64,000 nucleotides of DNA, taken from Octopus vulgaris. Lineage: Eukaryota. The stretch lies in the NCBI GenBank assembly GCA_951406725.2, contig OX597816.1:60264001-60328000 (forward strand), written 5' to 3'. Below are positions 9,872 to 53,489 of the stretch, in pieces (positions within the stretch are counted from its first letter, which is position 1; the number at the start of each line of letters is the position of its first letter). Made by a program: the position numbers and the translations under genes. Under the pieces are notes generated by a model that had not been told where the DNA came from, did not search any database, and saw nothing but the letters and a program-made list of their open reading frames with translations.

Positions 9872-10122
9872 TAATTATTATTATTATTATTATTATCATT
9901 ATTATTTTCTATTCTAGGCACAAGGCCTTGAAAATTTTTGAAGGGAAGGGGACTAGTCAATTACATCGACCTCAGTGCCTAACTGGTACTTATTTCATTG
10001 ACCCTGAAAGGATGAAAGGCAAAGTTATCTTCAGAGGAATTTGAACACAGAACATAGCAGCAGATGAAATACTGCTAAGCATTTCACCTGGCATGCTAAT
10101 AATTCTGCCATCTTTCGCCTTA

Positions 10123-10670
10123 GTGGCTCTCATGGCTTCTGATCTTAACTGATTGGAAGTGTTATCATGTACATTATTTTGTTTTGGTATAAAAGATGGG
10201 CTAACAGCAAATATTCTGCTCAATACCACAGATTTGCTTGTCGGTTGCTTGACCGTAACCAGTTGACCCTGTCCCTTAGTGGCTGACGATATGTGCATCT
10301 CTGATCACGAGCAGAAGTAGTTGGGGAGCATCATAGCCATGTGTTGAGAGGAATTCTTTGTGGTTTGGATAATTCACCTTTGGAAACATGGATGTTTCAT
10401 TCAACATCCTTAAACAATCCTTATTCAGGGACCTTTTCAGCTAGATGGGTTACTCGACCAGAAGAAAATTCTAATTGGGCCCCACCTGCAAGGTCATGCG
10501 CTGTTAATCTTGATATGAGATCACCATGTCTTGCATTTATGGTTGTGATACATGTGCCTAGTGTACCCTTATCACATGGTTAGTTATGATGGGTATACTG
10601 GACTTTGTATATTTTACTCCAGTGTCACTTCAATGGCATGCACTGCTCTCTCACTCAATATTAATAATAA
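10123..10670 (+). mobile_element. Retroposon family C
   Basis: Reverse complement of 1921-2490, with (TAA)n-like tail. Confidence 0.7.
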
Positions 10671-11032
10671 TATCAACAATTCTTTAAAGTGTCTTTATGT
10701 TCTGAGTTCAAATTCCACCAAAGTCGACATTTCCTTTCATCCTTTTGGGGATGGATAAATTAAGTACCAGTTGCATACTGGAGTCAATCTAATCAACTGG
10801 CCCCACCTCCCAAAAATTTCGGGCCTTGTGCCTAGAGTAGAAAAGAATATTAATGGTTCTTTGTAATTTTGGCACAAGGCCAACAATTTTGATGGAAGAA
10901 TGTAAGTCAATTACACTGACCCCAGTATTTAACTGGTACATTATTTTTAAGCAGACCACTTCCCCAGTAGAAAACTTTAAAAAGAATAGTTTAATTACTG
11001 TTAATTTATCAGAAGTTTTATAATATATAAAG

Positions 11033-16494: not shown

Positions 16495-16939
16495 CACACA
16501 CACACACATTCTTCCTGTAACCAACTCCTGTTCTTCAAGTAAGGTATTCTAATTCCACTGGGTCTTAACATGTTAAAAATCAATGAAAGTTTTGATCAAT
16601 GAGATGTAAACAAACATCAAGGCTTTTGCTCAAAAAGTGTCAATATGAAGACAAAAATAACACACACAAAGATATAAACAAATACATGCCCGAAATATAT
16701 AAACATTTACATACAATTTCCTACTACACAATTTCATTAACCACATTTCACTCACAAGGTATGAATCAGTCCGAGGCTCTTGTAAAGAGCAATTTGTCCA
16801 AGGTGCCATGCAGTGGGATAGAACCCAAAACCACATGACTGTGAAGCAAACTTCCTAACTAAACAACCATACCTGTGTCTATTCCATGCTACCACCTGTG
16901 GTCATTCCTGTACCTACAACCATGACTGCACCTCTCGTC

Positions 16940-17181
16940 ATACTCTTTTTCACTTGTTTCAGTCATGTGACTGTTGCCATGTTGGAGCACTGCCTTTAGT
17001 CGAGCAAATCGACCCCAGGACTTATTCATTTTTTTGTAAGCCCAGTACTTATTCTATTGGTCTCTTTTGCTGAACTCCTAAGTTACTGGGACGTAAACAC
17101 ACTAGCATCGGTTGTCAAGCTATGTTGGGGGGACAAACACAGACACACAAACATATACACACGTGTACATATATATATATG

Positions 17182-17225
<44 letters not shown>

Positions 17226-17287
17226 TATACATATATACGACGGGCTTCTTTTCAGTTTCCATCTACCAAATCCACTCACAAGGCTTT
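16940..17287 (-). mobile_element. SINE family A lacking its head; donor of the 19.3-kb duplication
   Basis: Family A 3' two-thirds, with private variants shared with 19487-19803. Confidence 0.8.
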
Positions 17288-18511
17288 CTAATTTTGGCAC
17301 AAAGTTAGCAATTTTAGAGAAAGGGGGTTAGTCAATAACATCAACCCAAGTGCACATCTGGTACTTATTTTATCAACCTCAAACGGATGAAAGGCAAAGT
17401 CACCCTCAGTTGGAGTTGAACTCAGAATGTTAAAAGCCAGAAGAAGTGTCACAAAGTTTTGTATCTAATGTGCTAGTCTGTGTTCTGCTAGTCTGCCGCC
17501 TTGCTTTAAATTTTGGCACAAAGCCAGCAATTTGAGAGGCGGTGTAAGTCAATTACATCAACCCCAGCACTTGATTGGAACTTTGTTTTACTAACCCCAA
17601 AAGAATTATCTCAATGGATTTGAAGTCAGAATATAAAGAGATGGGGAAATGTTGCACGGTAAATTTTTAGATGATCTAATAATTCTGTCAGCTTGCTGCC
17701 TCAAGTTATATATGATAATTATAATTATTTAAAAATTCTAAACAATTATTTTTAAGTCTGTATTTTGTTTCCATAAAGTGGTTAGCATCTCTATTTTGTT
17801 TCCATAAAGTGGTTTATCCTATAGTACTATGCTCACATTAACAATATATTAGTAATATTTTGTCTAATTATAAGGATGGGATGAATTGGTTCTTAATTTT
17901 ATGGAAAGAATATTTGGGAAAAAAAGTTTATACACAATATATAATTAATTCAAACAATATTATTCATGGTATAGATGAATACATTATGGAGATTAGGTAG
18001 ATTTTAAACACAAATAATTATAATATTCATCTTTATGTGGTATAAATCATGGCATTTTGTAGAGTGAGAAATAAAAAAAAAACGTGTGAATATATTGGTT
18101 CATGTGAATATGTATTCCTCCTTTGTGCATGTGTGTTTGTGTGTGTGTGTGTGTGTGTTAATCATATACACATATGTGCTTGTGTATGTGTGTGCATGAC
18201 CATATGTATGTACATACACACAGAGATAAATTTTCTGTTGGATAAGATGCTGATCTAAGACAAAATAATATTTCCAGATAATCTGTTCTATATTCTTGAG
18301 AATTAAGTGAACTGAGATAATGCAGAATAAAGTGCTTTGTATGGAAATTGAACAAAACATCTCTAGCAGATTTGAACCTATGACTTGTGATTCATTCTTC
18401 GTCAACATGATATAAAACAACAGTACTGAACATTTTGTTTGCACTATGGGCCAATTGCATACAAAACAACTTTTCTACAAACTGGTGAATCATGTATAGG
18501 TGCTGAAATCA

Positions 18512-19331: not shown

Positions 19332-19702
19332 AAGAGCAATTTGTCCAAGGTGCCATGCAGTGGGATAGAACCCAAAACCACATGACTGTGAAGCAAACTT
19401 CCTAACTAAACAACCATACCTGTGTCTATTCCATGCTACTACCTGTGGTCATTCCTGTACCTACAACCATGACTGCACCTCTCGTCATACTCTTTTTTCA
19501 CTTGTTTCAGTCATGTGACTGTGGCCATGTGGCCATGCCTTTAGTCGAGCAAATCAACCCCAGGATTTATCCTTTGGAACCCTAGTACTTATTCTATCGG
19601 TCTCTTTTGCTGAACTGCTAAGTTACTGGGACGTAAACACACTAGCATCGGTTGTCAAGCTATGTTGGGGGGACAAACACAGACACACAAACATATACAC
19701 AC

Positions 19703-19773
<71 letters not shown>

Positions 19774-19985
19774 TACAACGGGCTTCTTTTCAGTTTCCAT
19801 CTAAAGGGGTTTACAAAAGGGGTTACAAAAAGGCAGTCTGTAACCTTCTTATAATTAGACAAAATATTACTAATATATTGTTAATGTGAGCATAGTACTA
19901 TAGGATAAACCACTTTATGGAAACAAAATACAGGTTTAAAAATAATTGTTTAGAATTTTTAAATAATTATAATTATCATATATAA
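19332..19985. repeat. Composite duplication: direct copy of 16785-17265, 44-bp filler, inverted copy of 17706-17874
   Basis: Direct alignment by eye; includes non-repeat spacer sequence. Confidence 0.9.
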
Positions 19986-37657: not shown

Positions 37658-38363
37658 TTAAAGGGGAAAGGTCAGCAAGTATTTTGCTGACAGGCGAAAG
37701 ACACAATTGCAACTCACAGATCAGGGATTTTTGAAGAATATGCAGGAACACATATACATAAATATGACAGGTTTCTTCCAGATATACTATGTCTGAAAAA
37801 TTTGATCTACTGTTGTTTAACCTCCAACTGCATCAAACCAAAGAGTAGTAGTTTTCTTCTTCCATTTTGACCAAATCTCAGAATCCCTACTATAATATCA
37901 TGGATATTGCCCCTTCTTCCTCTAGCTTTGTCATAAAAAATGTAGAGATAGTAGCTCTTATAATATCCATTATTCCATCCATTTTCGCCATCCACTGTTA
38001 CTGGAAGGATCATGAGAGTAGGGTCCTCAGGCACTTCTCCTATTGGGTTCTATTAGAAACAACCGTTGTAACACTTCCCAGTTGGAATCCTAGGTGTGAC
38101 AAATTCAGACCTCTCAATGCAGAGGAATTGCAGCTCAACTTGGAGAGACTCCTAGTTAAAATATATTGGTTTATATACTTTTAAGATAGAAATAATCTTG
38201 AGTGGCTGTGTGGTAAGTAGCTTGCTTATGAACTACATGGTTCTGGGTTCAGTCCCACTGCATGGCACATTGGGCAAGTGTCTTCTACTATAGCCTTGGG
38301 CCAACCAAAGCCTTTTGAGTGGATTTGGAAGATGGAAATTTAAAGAAGCCCGTTGTATATATG

Positions 38364-38398
<35 letters not shown>

Positions 38399-38498
38399 GT
38401 ATATGTTTGTATTTGACCCCCAACATTGCTTGACAACCGATGTTGGTGTGTTTACGTCCCCATAACTTAGTGACTCAGCAAAAGAGACCTATAATTTT

Positions 38499-41045
38499 TT
38501 GGTAATTCCTTGTGCCGATTTGAACGAATCACAAGAAGTTTTTTTCTGTGACGTACGTATGACCATGTCAACACTCCTGCTTGGCGTTGTTTATCGTCCC
38601 CCAAATTACCATCAGGACACACAGCTTTGCAACATCCTCCGAGCTGCAGCCAGGAAAACAGCCACTTATGTGTTTATTGCAGGCGATTTCAATCATCCTG
38701 AGATCGATTGGGAAACCTTCCGTTGGCCACAGAGTGCAAACGATTTTGTTGAGCTTGTTCTGGACTCAAACTGGTCACAAGTAGTCACCTCTCCAACAAG
38801 AGGCGACAACACCTTGGACCTGCTCTTCACCACAACTCCTGAAGCGGTTATCAATTGTACTACGGAGGAACCTCTAGGTGACTCTGATCATGCTATGATC
38901 ATCACCAATCTGGCTCTTGCGGGCAACAAACACCTGAACCATCTCCAATCTGCTTCCTTCGATTGGAAGAGAGCAGATTGGAACCTGTACCACACTGAAC
39001 TACAGCACCCAAACTGGCGTGAATTCTACAACTCTGGAGATGTGAATACTATACTCCAGAGTATCCTGGACTCAATATGGGCAGCATGTGCAGCATCAGT
39101 GCCACGTAAACAAAAAAAGAAGAACCGCCCCAAAAGGGCAATTTGGAAAACTTCAGCGGTCCGACTTGCCAGGAAGGAACGTCGGGCTGCTGAACAGGAA
39201 TACAAGTTGCATAAATCAGACACCAACAGGAAGAAGTGGAATAAATCCTCCAACCATCTCAAGCAAGTGACAAAAAATGCAGTGCTTGAATTTGAACAGT
39301 GCATAGCAGCCAATCCTGACAGCAAGGTTTTCTGGAAATATGTGCATTCAAAGCAGAGACCTCACTCTCCAGTGGGCCCTCTTCGCAACCCTCACACGAA
39401 CCAGATCACTGACGACCCCAAGGAATGCGCAGAACTCATTGCCGAGTGCTATGCAAACATATTCACTGTCGAAAGTCAAAATGTACCATCTTCACCATCA
39501 CTAACAGCAAACTCCATAACAACTATGGAATTTACACCTGCAATGCTGCGACGTCACCTTCAAAATAAGCGCAACTATGCCTCCCCTGGTCTCGATGGAG
39601 TTACATACCTGCTTCTCAAACGTGGCAGGCACTTCCTTTTACACCAGCTTTCTATTTTCTTCCAGTACTGTCTCAACAATGGTGCTACTCCGGAGCAGTG
39701 GAAAACTGCCAGTGTCATTCCTCTGTTCAAAAAGGGTGACCGCACATCACCTGTCAACTATCGCCCAGTCAGTCTCACTAGCTGTATTGCAAAACTGATG
39801 GAATCGTGTGTCAGAGAAACACTCTGGAACTTCTGGAGCTCTCACAGTCTCATCCGACCCTCACAATATGGATTTGTCCCTAACTCCAGCTGCAGTGACC
39901 AGCTTGTCGAGTTCCTTGGGGACATTACTCAGATCACTGACAGTGGCTCATGGGTGGATGTTGTCTACCTTGACTTTGCTAAGGCTTTCAACTCTGTGCC
40001 ACACAAAAGGCTTATGGTGAAACTCTCTGCAATGGGTGTGGGGGATGACCTTTTTAACTGGTTGAAATCCTTCATCCTCAGCCGAAAGGAGGTAGTCACA
40101 GTTCTAGGACAGCACTCTACACCATATGAGATGTCATCGGGTGTACCACAGGGATCTGTCCTTGGTCCCCTCCTGTTTGTGGCATACATTAATGACATAG
40201 ATGCCAATTTAAAGAATGCCACAGTATTGAAATATGCAGATGACATCAAGCTGTACCTTGAAATCAAGAGGACTGATCCTGATGTCTACAACTCTTTCCT
40301 GCAATCAGACCTAGACACAATGCAGCAATGGATCACAGACTGGCAACTGAAACTGGCTGTGGACAAGTGTACCACCATGCATTTTGGGAGAAAAAACCCT
40401 GCGTCCACATACTCCCTCCACAACACTGATATCAAGAAATCCTCTTGCGAGCGTGACCTAGGCATCACTGTCAGCAGTGATTTGCATTGGACAAAGCATA
40501 TCTCTAAAATTGTCAAGAAGGCCGAGGGTGTCTTGGCATCACTCAGCAAGACTTTTGTTAGCCGCTCTCCAGCCATCTATTTAAAACTGTATACAGCTAT
40601 GGTACGACCACACTTGGAATTCGCATCATCAGTTTGGAATCCCTATCTTGCTCAGAACATTGACCTCCTGGAATCTGTCCAGAGACGTGCAACCAAACGC
40701 ATACCCTCCATCAGACACCTACCATATTCTGAGCGCCTTGTTTCCCTGGGCATGGATTCACTGAAGCTCCGGCGTCTAGCGACAGACTTGGTAAACACCC
40801 ACAAGGTTATCAACCACCTCACCAACAACAACACTGAACACCTTTTTGATCTCCATGTGTCTAACACATGTGGACATGCCTACAAAGTCAGAAAACAGCA
40901 CAGCTCCCATGACTTTCGGAAACATTTTTTCACGCTCAGGGTTGCTGAAGCGTGGAATAAACTGCCTGCATCAGTTGTTGACTGCCATGACACTGCATCC
41001 TTTAAGGCCCTCATGCTTCCCGAAATCCGTCGAAACTACACCTGA
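38499..41045 (+). CDS. LINE ORF2: C-terminal part of APE endonuclease plus reverse transcriptase, 5'-truncated, no internal stops
   Basis: EN motifs YRPP, GDFN, LDL, SDH. RT and C-terminal motifs YRPVSLTS, QYGF, YLDFAKAF, SGVPQGSVLGPLLF, YADD, RPHLEFASSVWNP, FF..RV...WNKLP. Lacks a native start, so probably not expressed. Confidence 0.9.
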   Translation: MVIPCADLNESQEVFFCDVRMTMSTLLLGVVYRPPNYHQDTQLCNILRAAARKTATYVFIAGDFNHPEIDWETFRWPQSANDFVELVLDSNWSQVVTSPTRGDNTLDLLFTTTPEAVINCTTEEPLGDSDHAMIITNLALAGNKHLNHLQSASFDWKRADWNLYHTELQHPNWREFYNSGDVNTILQSILDSIWAACAASVPRKQKKKNRPKRAIWKTSAVRLARKERRAAEQEYKLHKSDTNRKKWNKSSNHLKQVTKNAVLEFEQCIAANPDSKVFWKYVHSKQRPHSPVGPLRNPHTNQITDDPKECAELIAECYANIFTVESQNVPSSPSLTANSITTMEFTPAMLRRHLQNKRNYASPGLDGVTYLLLKRGRHFLLHQLSIFFQYCLNNGATPEQWKTASVIPLFKKGDRTSPVNYRPVSLTSCIAKLMESCVRETLWNFWSSHSLIRPSQYGFVPNSSCSDQLVEFLGDITQITDSGSWVDVVYLDFAKAFNSVPHKRLMVKLSAMGVGDDLFNWLKSFILSRKEVVTVLGQHSTPYEMSSGVPQGSVLGPLLFVAYINDIDANLKNATVLKYADDIKLYLEIKRTDPDVYNSFLQSDLDTMQQWITDWQLKLAVDKCTTMHFGRKNPASTYSLHNTDIKKSSCERDLGITVSSDLHWTKHISKIVKKAEGVLASLSKTFVSRSPAIYLKLYTAMVRPHLEFASSVWNPYLAQNIDLLESVQRRATKRIPSIRHLPYSERLVSLGMDSLKLRRLATDLVNTHKVINHLTNNNTEHLFDLHVSNTCGHAYKVRKQHSSHDFRKHFFTLRVAEAWNKLPASVVDCHDTASFKALMLPEIRRNYT

Positions 41046-41649
41046 TAAGTATTGGGTTATCCCATAAATAACACAGTTTTTTTTATACCTCTTTTATTTT
41101 TCAAAATTAAGAGAAACAAAGTTCTTTTTTAATCTAAACTATACTCTCCTTTATTTTCTACAATGCTCTTCCATCTGTCTGGTAGACTTGCAAGGCTCTC
41201 TTCCACAATTCACTTATCCATGACAAAAAAATACTCCTCCAGTACTGTTCTCACCTTGTCTACAGAATTCATATTTTTTCCGGCCAAATGATTTTGAAAA
41301 CTGTGGCATAAATGATAATCAGGTGGGGCAATGTCCGGCGAATATGGTGGGTGGGGCATCGTTTCCCATTCAAACTACTCCAGCCTTTGGAATGTCATCC
41401 TCGCTGTATGTGGCCAAGCATTATCCTGATGGAAGAACACCTTTTGTCTTGAAACCAAAAATGGTTGTTTTGTGACATTGCAGGGTAGGTGTGAGATGCT
41501 GGTTCTGGCCAGTTTGAGCATAAAATGTGTAGAATATTTGGGCCGGATATCGCCGGTTTAAACACTAAAGGGTTAAACTCAAACCAAACAATGAAAAAGA
41601 AGATCCACTGCGAGCAACTTGAGCGGCTTAAGTCAGCGCTAGAAGAAAA
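41044..41649. repeat. Templated insertion: inverted copy of 43553-43977 followed by direct copy of 43378-43555
   Basis: About 6 differences over ~600 bp by eye. Includes flank beyond the mariner TIR and part of the nested piggyBac MITE. Confidence 0.9.
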
Positions 41650-42474
41650 CACTTTAGATGAGTTGTAGTGCACCTGAGCACTGTACACAATTATTATTAT
41701 TATTATTATTATTATAGAGTAAGTACTAGGCTTACAAAGAATAAGTCCTGGGGTTGATTTACTCGACTAAAAGCGGTGCTCCAGCATGGCCACAGTCAAA
41801 TGACTGAAACAAGTAAAAGAGTAAAAAAGAGAGAGGAAAGAGTAAAGTAATTTTTGTTGCCACAAAGTTAATGAAAGAATTTTTGTTTCATTTATCTTTT
41901 TATTAAAAAATAAGAAAATTTGGGTGTGGATGTTAAAAAGTATAGGTACTTTTTGGAAAATCATTTAACGGTTCTGCAACAAAATAATTCTGCTAACCAC
42001 AGGAATAAGATATCCTGTTAGAGATATCTTTCCAGAGTGCATTAGTGAAATAAAATAAAGAAAACTAGCAGCTTATCAAGAAACAAAACAAATCTGTGAC
42101 CTTATCTTGCCAAAAGACCTATCTTTACTGCATGGTGCTCATACTTTTGAAAAATGCTTTCTGATAAAGCTTAAAACCAACCCTCTGCTGGGAAAATAAA
42201 CAAGAAAGAAAAATGGACACCCAAAATATTCATTTCATTACATTTGTTTACATGTTGAAAGGTTCTTTACAGAACCTGATGCAAATATTTAAGAAAATAA
42301 ATATTTCTGGTAGAAACAAGTATCAAAGACAAGTTAGCATTGTTAATGAGAAGGAAATTAATAAATTCTTTATTCTGTTACTGGTTGCAGTCATTGGACT
42401 GCAGCCATGCTGAGGCACTACCACCAAGGTTTTTCATTAGTCTTATCAACTTCAGTTCTTATTTTTGTTTATTA

Positions 42475-43970
42475 TTGGGTCATCCGATAAATAATGCTGT
42501 TGTTTCAATTGCATGAACTAAAAGTCAGAGGGGGATGGGATAAACTACCTGCATCAACTTATAATAAAAGCAGGTAGTAATTTTACCTTGTACTTATTCT
42601 TAGTACAAGTTTTGAAGAGTGCAGTTCAATTTTAACAGTTATAATGGAAGTGACAAAGGATCATGTTCGGCATATTTTGTTTTATGAGTTCAATAAAGGC
42701 AACAGTGCAATGGGAAGTGCAAGGAATATTAATGCAGTATATGGGAATCAGACAATAAGCATAAGCCAGTGTCAATGATGGTTTCAGAAATTCCAAGCTG
42801 GAAACCACAGCCTAGAAGATGAGCCTCATCCTGGAAGATCTGTAGAGCTTGAGGAAGATGTCCTGCAAACCCTGGTGGGACAAAATCCCATTGTAATTGT
42901 TGAGGAACTAACAGAGAAGCTTAGATTTGGTCATTCAACCATTCATCAACACCTGCATGCCATCAGAAAAGTCAGCAAATTGGGTTAATGGGTTCCTCAC
43001 AAACTTTCCAAGTCTTATTGCACTGAGAGAGTGAATGCATTTTCCTCTTTGCTGCCACATCTCATGAATGAATCTTTTTTGGACTGAATAGTGACTGCTG
43101 ACAAGAAATGGGTCCTCTATAAGAATGTCAAGCACCAAAACAGTGGGCAGAGAAACGAGAAACACTGGCACCCCAGGCTAAAGAAGGTCTTCACCCATAT
43201 AAAGTGTTGTTATCTGTTTGGTGGAATATGAAAGGTTTATTTCACTGTGAACTTTTAACCCTTTAGCGTTCATATTAATTTGTCAAAAGTAATCCTTATT
43301 TATTCACATTTAAAAAAATTTATCTGATATTATTTTGTACCTTCAAGATAGGAAAGATGTAATTGCTTATTTTTAGAGTGACATTGCAGGGTAGGTGTGA
43401 GATGCTGGTTCTGGCCAGTTTGAGCATAAAATGTGTAGAATATTTGGGCCGGATATCGCCGGTTTAAACACTAAAGGGTTAAACTCAAACCAAACAATGA
43501 AAAAGAAGATCCACTGCGAGCAACTTGAACGGCTTAAGTCAGCGCTAGAAGAAAAACAACCATTTTTGGTTTCAAGACAAAAGGTGTTCTTCCATCAGGA
43601 TAATCCTTGGCCACATACAGCGAGGATGACATTCGAAAGGCTGGAGTAGTTTGAATGGGAAACGATGCCCCACCCACCATATTCGCCGGACATTGCCCCA
43701 CCTGATTATCATTTATGCCACAGTTTTCAAAATCATTTGGCCGGAAAAAATATGAATTCTGTAGACAAGGTGAGAACAGTACTGGAGGAGTATTTTTTTG
43801 TCATGGATAAGTGAATTGTGGAAGAGAGCCTTGCAAGTCTACCAGACAGATGGAAGAGCATTGTAGAAAATAAAGGAGAGTATAGTTTAGATTAAAAAAG
43901 AATTTTGTTTCTCTTAATTTTGAAAAATAAAAGAGGTATAAAAAACTGCGTTATTTATGGGATAACCCAA
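42475..43970 (+). mobile_element. Full-length, inactivated mariner (DD34D) transposon
   Basis: TIRs ttgggtcatccgataaataa / ttatttatgggataacccaa with TA TSD. Transposase relic from 42644: MEVTKDHVRHILFYEF...WVPHKL...IVTADKKW...HQDNPWPH...HPPYSPDIAPPDYHL, with stops and frameshifts. Confidence 0.92.
43259..43478. mobile_element. piggyBac-type MITE nested in the mariner
   Basis: TTAA|ccctttagcgtt ... aacactaaaggg|TTAA; interrupts the transposase. Confidence 0.85.
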
Positions 43971-44024
43971 TACTTATGACGGTCTTAGAGCAAATCACTT
44001 GCCTGGAAAGTACATCTCCAAAAT

Positions 44025-51112: not shown

Positions 51113-52286
51113 AGATAATACTCAATCACATACTTTATTAAACCACTACATAAGAATCTATAAGGTTAAACATAATAATGCAGGGTAAAACATTGTACAT
51201 GAAGGAGTGTACATAAAATAGTAATGTTATACAATAAGAAAAATACGTATAATCTCTCTATATATAAATGGCAGTTTGTCTGTCTGTGTGTCTGTCAGGT
51301 TGTACCCTCACCCTGACCACGGCTTTCAACCGATTCTGATGAAACTTGACACACACATAGCCCAATGTCATAATTCAAAACTAACGCAGCGAAAATTTTG
51401 AAAAGTCCCCCCAGTTCTGAAAAATCGATAAATTTGACATGGGTCGAGAATCTAAGCTTTTTATATGCAACACATTTTCTACAGACTGTCTAGGGGATGC
51501 AACTCGACCTTTTTAACTCTCGGAATACGTGGGGTAAGTATCCCAAAATGTATAACAATGTACAAAAATGGCAAAAAAGTGGGCAGCAATGTGAGTGACA
51601 ACAACGAAAAAGTCAAAAGTGACCAAACTGAACAAACGAATGGAAAAGGTTTTTTGGTGCACACGACAAAAGCGGTTTATAATAAACCAAGAGTTTGCAA
51701 GTAGCGTCCGAGTACCCTTAGGGTACATCAAAAATTTAAGGTAAAATGTTTGGAGTGGTAGTTATAAAGAAAGTGTAAACAAAAAAAGTATTCGAATAAC
51801 TTGCGGCTGCAGCAGCTATTAGCAGAAGTGGCGGTGTTGGGGGTAAAGTCTCGAATGTAATTTCTTCCTGGTAGGAATTGGTTGGGTTGAATTATCGATA
51901 GCTGTTTGATAGTTATTTGGGAGTGAAGAGAAGACATTGCAACCTACACATGCGCCTTCGTTCCCTAGAGGGAAAGGACTAGATTGGGATTAGTCATTGC
52001 CTACTAGGGGCTCTTACATACCCGGGCAACGCCGGGCTATGCTGCTAGTAGAACATAAATATAAGTACACATAAGGTTAAACATATAAGTACACATAAGG
52101 TTAAACATAATAATGCAGGGTTATGTGTACTTATATTTATGTTCTATTATACGTATTCTTCTTATTGTATAACATTACTATTTTATGTACACTCCTTCAT
52201 GTACAATGTTTTACCCTGCATTATTATGTTTAACCTTATAGATTCTTATGTAGTGGTTTAATAAAGTATGTGATTGAGTATTATCT
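51113..52286. repeat. Fold-back inverted duplication with 166-bp arms; left arm interrupted by a Helitron
   Basis: Left arm 51113-51252 plus 52049-52074 is the reverse complement of 52121-52286, with one mismatch seen. Confidence 0.9.
51253..52048 (+). mobile_element. Non-autonomous Helitron, 796 bp
   Basis: A|TC start; hairpin cccgggcaacgccggg then CTAG|T end. The empty site is preserved in the inverted arm and shows A|T insertion without TSD. Confidence 0.9.
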
Positions 52287-52394: not shown

Positions 52395-52562
52395 TATCAG
52401 GGAGTATAACTTATTATATATTGTTTATTCATTTTTGTACTTTTTGTGATCTAGTAATATGTTTTAAAATATATTTTATTTTTTATTCATGATTTTGTTT
52501 ATGTCTATCATTGTTTGAATTGCATAATAGTGGTTTTTCTCTAATTTATATATATACATGTA

Positions 52563-53417
52563 TTGTATCATTCCATAAATAATGTTGTTCTTTTCAATTG
52601 CATGAACTAAAAGTCAGATGGGGTCAGGATAAACTACCAAGTGCAAATTTTGAAGAGTGCAGTTGGATTTTCACAGCTTTTTTGTCAAAGCTATAGCGGA
52701 AGTGTTAAAGGAGAATATTCAGCATATTTTGCTTTATGAGTTCAATAAAGGCAACAATGCAATGGAAAGTGCAAGGAATATTAATGCAGTATATGGGGAT
52801 TGGACAATAAGAGTAAGCCAATGTCAACGGTGGTTCCAGAAATTCTGAGCCAGAAATTACAGTCTAGAAGACAAGCTACATCCTGGAAGATCTATAGAGC
52901 TTGGTGAGGACGTCCTGCAAACCTTGGTGGAACAAAATCCTATCGTAACTGTTGAGGAACTAGCAGCGAAGCTTGAATTTGGTCATTCAAGTCAGCACTA
53001 GAAGAAAAACAGCCATCATTGGTTTCAAGACAGTGTTCTTCCATCCGGATAATGCTCGGCTACTTACAGCAAGGATGACATTCCAAAGGCTGGGGCAGTT
53101 TGAATGGGAAACAATGCCCCACCCACCTTATTTGCCAGACATTGCTTCATCTGATTATTATTTATTCTACAGTCTTCAAAATCATTTGGACAGAGAAAAT
53201 ATGAATTCTGTAGACGAGGTTAGAATAGTACTGGAGGGGTATTTTTCATAATGGACAAGCAAATTGTGGAAGAGGGGCCTTGCAAATCTATCAGATAGAT
53301 GGAAGAGTATTGTAGAAACTGAAAAAGAATATATTTTAGATTAAAAAAGAACTTTGTTTATCTTAATTTTGAAAAGTAAAAAAAGTATTAAAAAAAACAC
53401 TTTATTTATGGGATGAC

Positions 53418-53421
<4 letters not shown>
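52563..53421 (+). mobile_element. Internally deleted mariner, same family as 42475-43970
   Basis: Same TIRs and TA flanks. N-terminal QHILLYEFNKGN, then a deletion at 'ggtcattcaa|gtcagc', then HPDNARL...HPPYLPDIASSDYYL. Confidence 0.88.

Positions 53422-53489
<68 letters not shown>

What the first reader, a model, noticed from the sequence alone, without database searches (positions are those of the whole stretch)
41044..41649. Twin-priming-like copy of the neighbouring mariner inside a young LINE 3' UTR
Seen: right after the LINE stop codon come rc(43553-43977) and then 43378-43555, after which the LINE terminal stem-loop and (TTA)n resume. The two pieces abut in the donor with ~3-nt overlap (aaa). 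The copy runs ~7 nt past the mariner TIR and includes half of the locus-specific piggyBac MITE, at ~99% identity. Established: an inverted upstream segment abutting a forward segment is the geometry of twin-primed TPRT. Inference: both ends of a break primed on one template strand (RNA or ssDNA) from a locus about 2-3 kb away. There is no poly(A), so this may be RT-mediated or RNA-templated repair rather than normal retrotransposition.
Basis: partly seen in the sequence, partly recalled or inferred. Interest (0 to 1): 0.72.

Follow-up and report, generated by a model that had tools for sequence, protein, structure and literature searches.

The report
Local DNA patch inside young LINE
A 605-base copy of DNA lying about 2 kb away, in two abutting pieces joined head to head, replaces seven bases inside one young retrotransposon copy; it is most likely a one-off DNA-break repair scar of a known kind, and copying from RNA is possible but unsupported.

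Summary
Window 41045-41471 is rc(43553-43977) at 421/427; 41472-41649 is 43378-43555 at 177/178. The insert replaces TATATAT in the LINE 3' UTR, with no TSD and no poly(A). It is unique: 1 copy disrupted at this point against 322 exact intact ones. The donor is local (next best 90-91%; MITE junction locus-specific).

The geometry does not prove reverse transcription. Any inverted pair of abutting pieces fits twin priming, and the inferred top-strand template is both mariner sense RNA and the strand removed by resecting the right-hand break end. Tiled, oppositely oriented ~180-bp insertions from within 10 kb of a break are described as ssDNA products (PMC12807874). No RNA sign was found: no editing, dead donor, no locus-specific RNA contig in 2 runs; the LINE shows 1 inversion in 98 copies. 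Other local templated copies occur nearby.

Best reading (0.55): DNA-templated break repair from one single-stranded piece. RT/RNA twin priming 0.2; formed during LINE insertion 0.15. No public contig spanned the junctions, so read proof is missing. The scan noted a similar two-piece patch elsewhere in this genome (unchecked).

The parts
38200..38493 (.). SINE, left part; the LINE inserted into it at a TATA
   Evidence: SINE alignments break at 38493 and resume at 41714; (T)ATA on both sides is a possible 3-4 nt TSD
38494..41046 (+). 5'-truncated young CR1-like LINE body, open APE+RT frame, stop at 41043-45
   Evidence: RVT_1, Exo_endo_phos_2; 8 private substitutions in 2553 nt; CR1 label rests on two-ORF APE-RT layout and recalled motifs, not on a clade tree
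41045..41046 (+). left junction microhomology AT
   Evidence: a match this long occurs at 8% of local sites
41045..41471 (-). insert piece B, inverted copy of 43553-43977
   Evidence: 421/427
41471..41472 (.). inner head-to-head junction (43553 joined to 43378), no microhomology
41472..41649 (+). insert piece A, direct copy of 43378-43555 (MITE right half, TTAA, mariner)
   Evidence: 177/178
41649..41651 (+). right junction microhomology: A strictly, ACA if one A slipped in the A-run
   Evidence: ACA-length match at 2.5% of local sites
41650..41713 (+). rest of the LINE 3' UTR and (ATT)8 tail
41714..41830 (.). SINE, right part
42475..43970 (+). dead mariner (donor element) between TA dinucleotides; stops and frameshifts
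   Evidence: HTH_48; weak Transposase_1; 105 of 1281 columns differ from the family majority
43259..43478 (.). TTAA-flanked piggyBac-type MITE inserted in this mariner copy
   Evidence: absent at this site in 28 of 28 other copies
43378..43977 (+). donor segment, intact, 1.7-2.3 kb right of the break

Best explanation
The 605-bp insert is a copy of the local segment 43378-43977 that replaces 7 bp of the LINE 3' UTR, and it most likely arose when a double-strand break in that TA run was patched from one single-stranded top-strand DNA piece released near the break. Steps: (1) shown: the LINE family has TATATAT here, this copy lost it, no TSD, no poly(A); (2) shown: the source is the neighbouring locus and its two pieces abut; (3) inferred: the right end was resected for more than 2 kb, and resection or discontinuous refilling released top-strand ssDNA covering the donor; (4) inferred: the left end primed at AT (43976-77) and copied 425 nt, the right end primed at ACA (43556-58) and copied about 180 nt, or the two adjacent fragments were captured on opposite strands; (5) inferred: the two new ends were joined without microhomology by end joining (polymerase theta type, enzyme untested) in the germ line, at about the time of or after the LINE insertion.
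For: Local, intact donor. Deletion plus microhomology, no TSD, no poly(A), ends that ignore element borders. PMC12807874 section 13: 126 short insertions, median 184 bp, 113 within 10 kb of a break, tiled with little gap or overlap, 41 of 79 neighbour pairs on opposite strands, proposed to be ssDNA complementary to the 3' overhang; here piece A is 178 bp and the top strand is that strand. Other local templated copies of non-repeat DNA exist in the 1.04 Mb examined: window 17706-17874 from 19848-19985, L094, L108, L149. No A-to-G change on the insert branch: the one A/G difference is ancestral G in the insert (G also in runs X1 and X2).
Against: Microhomology outside and none inside is also the L1 twin-priming pattern (PMC2912911 passages). 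The template strand equals mariner sense. This LINE family can make 5' inversions (L183, 1 of 98) and favours ATA targets (39 of 92), so its enzyme could have cut and copied here. The tiling model comes from chromothripsis in human cells, not from simple germ-line breaks. No second abutting inverted pair was seen among 44 filtered local copies. LINE and insert ages cannot be separated. Junctions not seen in reads.
Confidence: 0.55

Rival explanations
1. True twin-primed reverse transcription: both break ends primed on one plus-strand RNA crossing the dead mariner (intronic, read-through or break-induced RNA), copied by LINE ORF2, a Penelope RT or polymerase theta, after a cut in the TA run.
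For: Geometry, 3-6 nt overlap and junction microhomology match twin priming. Template strand is mariner sense. The family has one 5'-inverted copy in 98 and an ATA target bias. RNA-derived class 2 insertions exist (PMC5110952 sections 5 and 9). Unchecked scan notes report twin-armed Penelope/retrozyme insertions in TA repeats of this genome.
Against: No poly(A); the copy ends 46 nt past the nearest AATAAA (43926) with genomic sequence. Donor is decayed; no host exon found among 135 of 209 non-repeat and donor frames scanned. No editing mark. 5' inversions were rare outside human L1 in cell assays (PMC4245944 passages). Needs an extra reason for locality.
Confidence: 0.2
2. The patch formed during the LINE insertion itself: RT stalled 64 nt into the RNA, the cDNA end copied flank-derived top-strand DNA, and synthesis resumed on the LINE RNA 7 nt upstream.
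For: Insert and LINE are of similar age: 1 derived substitution in 605 nt against 8 in 2553 nt. Flank-derived pieces sit at the 5' junctions of L166 and L135 (2 of 98); L075 folds back at the same ACAC point, and L062 and L070 are truncated there. Flank-templated 5' extras are known for L2-clade LINEs (PMC4245944).
Against: Needs three switches and resumption on the same RNA; the other examples lie at 5' ends, not inside the element. 0 of 98 other copies has an internal local insert.
Confidence: 0.15
3. Conservative template switching (MMBIR/FoSTeS): one nascent strand jumped three times, or a simple inverted insertion was followed by an in-place inversion of piece A.
For: Germ-line multi-template insertions and in-place inversions are described (PMC8421209 passages); L094 and window 17706-17874 look like such events.
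Against: Does not explain why the pieces abut within 3-6 nt (about 0.2% if the second site were drawn from 6 kb; arithmetic, no call); the inner junction has no microhomology.
Confidence: 0.05
4. Assembly or chimeric-read artefact.
For: No contig listed for X1, X2, X15, X17 spans the inner or right junction; best word shares 0.54-0.60 are near the 0.64 expected from the donor alone.
Against: Insert and donor differ at 5 sites and an A-run; at 4 sites the insert has the family letter. A precise 7-nt loss with three junctions is not a typical misjoin. Young insertions are often absent from other individuals; contigs show presence only.
Confidence: 0.05

Closest known systems
Tiled short insertions from ssDNA near break ends (PMC12807874; passages and section 13 read)
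   Same: Size near 180 bp, donor under 10 kb from the break, adjacent pieces with little overlap, opposite orientations, strand complementary to the 3' overhang.
   Different: Described in chromothripsis of human cells; here a single germ-line break with no copy loss seen and no microhomology at the inner junction.
Class 2 templated sequence insertion polymorphisms (PMC5110952; abstract, sections 5 and 9 read)
   Same: No TSD, no poly(A), small deletion, microhomology, intact donor.
   Different: Their donors are distant and argued to be RNA-derived; this donor is 2 kb away, in two inverted pieces.
L1 twin priming (Ostertag and Kazazian 2001, seen only as cited in PMC2912911, PMC4245944, PMC12350158; passages read)
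   Same: Inverted 5' piece next to a forward 3' piece of one strand, small overlap at the inversion point, more microhomology outside than inside.
   Different: No poly(A), no TSD, template not a retroelement RNA or mRNA, host element CR1-like; such inserts are classed non-canonical in PMC12350158.
Microhomology-mediated templated insertions, MMBIR/TMEJ (PMC8421209; passages read)
   Same: Local donor, several pieces, microhomology, germ-line occurrence.
   Different: Longer than most; abutting pieces are not expected from random switching.
Flank-derived 5' extra nucleotides of L2-clade LINEs (PMC4245944; passages read)
   Same: Local DNA copied into a LINE junction; seen in this family (L166, L135, L075).
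   Different: Here the copy is inside the 3' UTR, 605 bp long, from 2 kb away.

Membership tests
Twin-primed TPRT insertion | Inverted 5' piece adjoining forward 3' piece of one template strand | tested here: met
Twin-primed TPRT insertion | Poly(A) or element tail at the template 3' end | tested here: not met
   copy ends in genomic flank 7 nt past the TIR
Twin-primed TPRT insertion | Target-site duplication | tested here: not met
   7-nt loss instead
Twin-primed TPRT insertion | RNA template (splicing, editing, transcript) | tested here: inconclusive
   no intron available; no A-to-G on the insert branch; no locus-specific RNA contig in 2 runs
Twin-primed TPRT insertion | Endonuclease-like target motif | tested here: inconclusive
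   break in a TA run; ATA follows the tail in 39 of 92 copies, but TA runs are common
Templated insertion at a double-strand break (class 2 TSIP type) | No TSD, no poly(A), microdeletion or microhomology | tested here: met
Templated insertion at a double-strand break (class 2 TSIP type) | Donor intact (copy, not cut-and-paste) | tested here: met
Templated insertion at a double-strand break (class 2 TSIP type) | Polymorphic, empty allele known | tested here: inconclusive
   junctions not listed in X1, X2 contigs; empty allele cannot be tied to this locus
Tiled ssDNA-fragment insertions | Donor under 10 kb, pieces tile with small gap or overlap, either orientation | tested here: met
   1.7-2.3 kb, 3-6 nt overlap, opposite orientation
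Tiled ssDNA-fragment insertions | Independent proof of ssDNA origin (strand-coordinated deamination, sister breakpoints) | not testable with these tools
   one old event, 5 substitutions
Mariner local hop | TIR end joined exactly to a target TA | tested here: not met
   donor flank CTT is copied beyond the TA; other end is internal

The most novel reading that the evidence does not exclude
A germ-line double-strand break was repaired in cis by twin-primed reverse transcription of a local, non-polyadenylated RNA, by a CR1-like or Penelope RT or by polymerase theta: a natural fossil of RNA-templated break repair outside mammals, one of a class that could be counted in octopus genomes.
Probability: 0.2. 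Interest if true: 0.55.

Novelty: new member of a known kind. Interest (0 to 1): 0.24.

Why it matters
As a single event it has no function: a repair scar in a dead transposon copy. Its value is as a clean test case, because the pre-break sequence is known from hundreds of sister LINE copies. If many such two-piece local patches were collected, their template strand would separate DNA-templated from RNA-templated break repair in an animal germ line, which is still argued over. It also shows that twin-priming geometry alone should not be read as proof of reverse transcription.

Tried and rejected
Closer donor elsewhere: none among 40 scored candidates; the C27 pattern hit is unrelated. Family-wide insert or hotspot: rejected; of 31 hits with a changed letter before the 3' end, 30 were fetched and only the window has body and end split by a large foreign insert. 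Mariner local hop: rejected by junction. ADAR mark: the single A/G difference is a donor-side change. Donor-side excess of substitutions (4 to 1) is not significant (p 0.375). Extended imperfect homology at priming sites: only top 6-7% of local sites. Reads: (X1, X2, X4, X13) was swamped by repeats and cut; one search listed 31 of about 917 pieces, none across the inner or right junction; the left junction was not; a hole in contigs proves nothing. RNA-labelled runs X15 and X17 have no cover at 41587-41604 (no proof of silence). Host gene: 135 frames scanned, only mariner domains and 3 sub-cutoff hits; orientation of any host transcript unknown. Inversion survey: 98 of the first 100 listed copies (C1-C4; two close neighbours dropped), blind to very short inversions. 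Paper searches: (0 hits); none listed this event or a two-ended local patch in a mollusc, but the library lacks most subscription papers and no supplements were read (Supplementary Note 3 of PMC12807874 bears on the ssDNA models).

Full report
Setting. The window is G000:C3:60264001-60328000 of a 2.8-Gb animal genome; earlier scan notes call it an octopus (unchecked). It is repeat-rich (53% matches other fetched loci). A 5'-truncated LINE with an open endonuclease-RT frame sits inside a SINE at a TATA. Long family members have two ORFs and an (ATT)n tail, which I read as CR1-like from recalled features. The copy is young: 8 private substitutions in 2553 nt; the family 3' 29-mer occurs 2694 times exactly.

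Observation. The insert is rc(43553-43977) at 421/427, then 43378-43555 at 177/178. 29 of 29 other copies read CCTGAT, a 7-nt TA-rich run, then ACACTTTAG, so 7 nt are lost and nothing is duplicated. 322 exact intact junctions exist and one that breaks at this point, the window itself. The donor is the neighbour: 99% against 90-91% for the next best of 40 scored candidates; the MITE is absent at this site in 28 of 28 other mariner copies; the copy includes the donor's own flank letters beyond the TIR. Junctions: AT on the left (8% of local sites match as well), A or ACA on the right (2.5% for ACA, which needs one slipped A), none inside.

Age and reality. Of 5 substitutions, 4 leave the insert with the family letter and the donor changed; 1 is a CpG change in the insert. 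Runs X1 and X2 each hold a contig across the MITE-mariner junction with the insert's G, so the donor's A looks recent or private. 4 to 1 is not significant, and 1 in 605 fits the LINE's own age. No listed contig crosses the inner or right junction in X1, X2, X15 or X17, and best word shares of 0.54-0.60 are close to the donor-only expectation of 0.64. The insert is therefore probably absent from those animals; I could not confirm it with reads.

What the geometry says. Abutment within 3-6 nt points to one source molecule (inference). Two-ended priming implies a top-strand template. But among the 6 arrangements in which two abutting pieces show as two, 4 fit twin priming, so the inversion adds little. 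The top strand is mariner sense, yet it is also the strand that resection removes from the right-hand end of a break at 41046-41650. PMC12807874 (section 13 read) reports short insertions of median 184 bp, 113 of 126 within 10 kb of a break, tiled at origin, 41 of 79 neighbour pairs on opposite strands, and proposes ssDNA complementary to the 3' overhang. That accounts for locality, tiling, inversion and lack of poly(A) without RNA.

Tests for RNA or RT. For: the family can invert (L183, 1 of 98, with a 733-nt gap) and ATA follows the tail in 39 of 92 copies; more microhomology outside than inside is the L1 pattern (PMC2912911 passages); class 2 insertions are argued to come from RNA (PMC5110952). 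Against: no tail or TSD; the donor is decayed; no host exon among 135 frames; no editing mark; no locus-specific contig in two RNA-labelled runs (weak); inversions were nearly confined to human L1 in cell assays (PMC4245944 passages).

Background rate. In 1.04 Mb, 126 local near-identical pairs were found and 44 passed a locus-specificity filter. Many are inverted repeats of rare elements or tandem copies. Several look like templated insertions of non-repeat DNA: window 17706-17874, L094, L108, L149. L166, L135 and L075 carry flank-derived pieces at LINE 5' junctions, which keeps formation during LINE insertion open. None besides this one has abutting inverted pieces. An unchecked scan note (e1-9583399) reports a similar two-piece local patch.

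Verdict. A real-looking, one-off templated insertion at a break: DNA-templated 0.55, RNA/RT twin priming 0.2, co-insertional 0.15, template switching 0.05, artefact 0.05. New member of a known kind; interest 0.24. Other papers seen: PMC11702581, PMC8421209, PMC12350158, PMC2246262, PMC13282606 (passages only); the rest as search listings; no supplements read.

Noticed in passing
window 17706-17874 vs 19848-19985: Second local templated insertion: two overlapping inverted copies (78 nt at 97%, 83 nt at 100%) of non-repeat DNA 2 kb away, with an 8-nt linker, like a back-slipped re-priming.
   Followed up: partly
L183 (= L015), G000:C4 near 34074460: 5'-inverted LINE copy, 240-nt inverted piece, 733-nt gap: twin priming by a CR1-like LINE, 1 of 98 copies.
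   Followed up: partly
L075, G000:C17 near 62610878: Short LINE end with a fold-back copy of its own 3' end, tail and about 35 nt of flank, joined at the same ACAC point as the window's right junction.
   Followed up: partly
L166 (-326..-188) and L135 (-431..-382), relative to the LINE 3' UTR: Copies of the 3' flank (inverted 139 nt; direct, patchy) at the LINE 5' junction.
   Followed up: partly
L094 (-6260..-5425): About 300-nt tandem duplication with a 65-nt piece from 470 nt downstream at its junction.
   Followed up: partly
L068, L076, L079, L085-L091: Older LINE subfamily with about 87 extra nt in the 3' UTR at the same position; 12 of the 31 pattern hits lie on contig C29.
   Followed up: no
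L033, L043 and others; window 52561-53423: Internally deleted mariner copies whose breakpoints fall at the same A-run (43536-43553) as the insert's inner boundary; probably shared microhomology.
   Followed up: no
window 51113-51253 vs 52146-52286; 1920-2465 vs 10122-10671; 16785-17265 vs 19332-19803: Other local pairs: 141-nt inverted at 99% (probably arms of a repeat element), 546-nt inverted at 90%, 482-nt direct at 94%.
   Followed up: no
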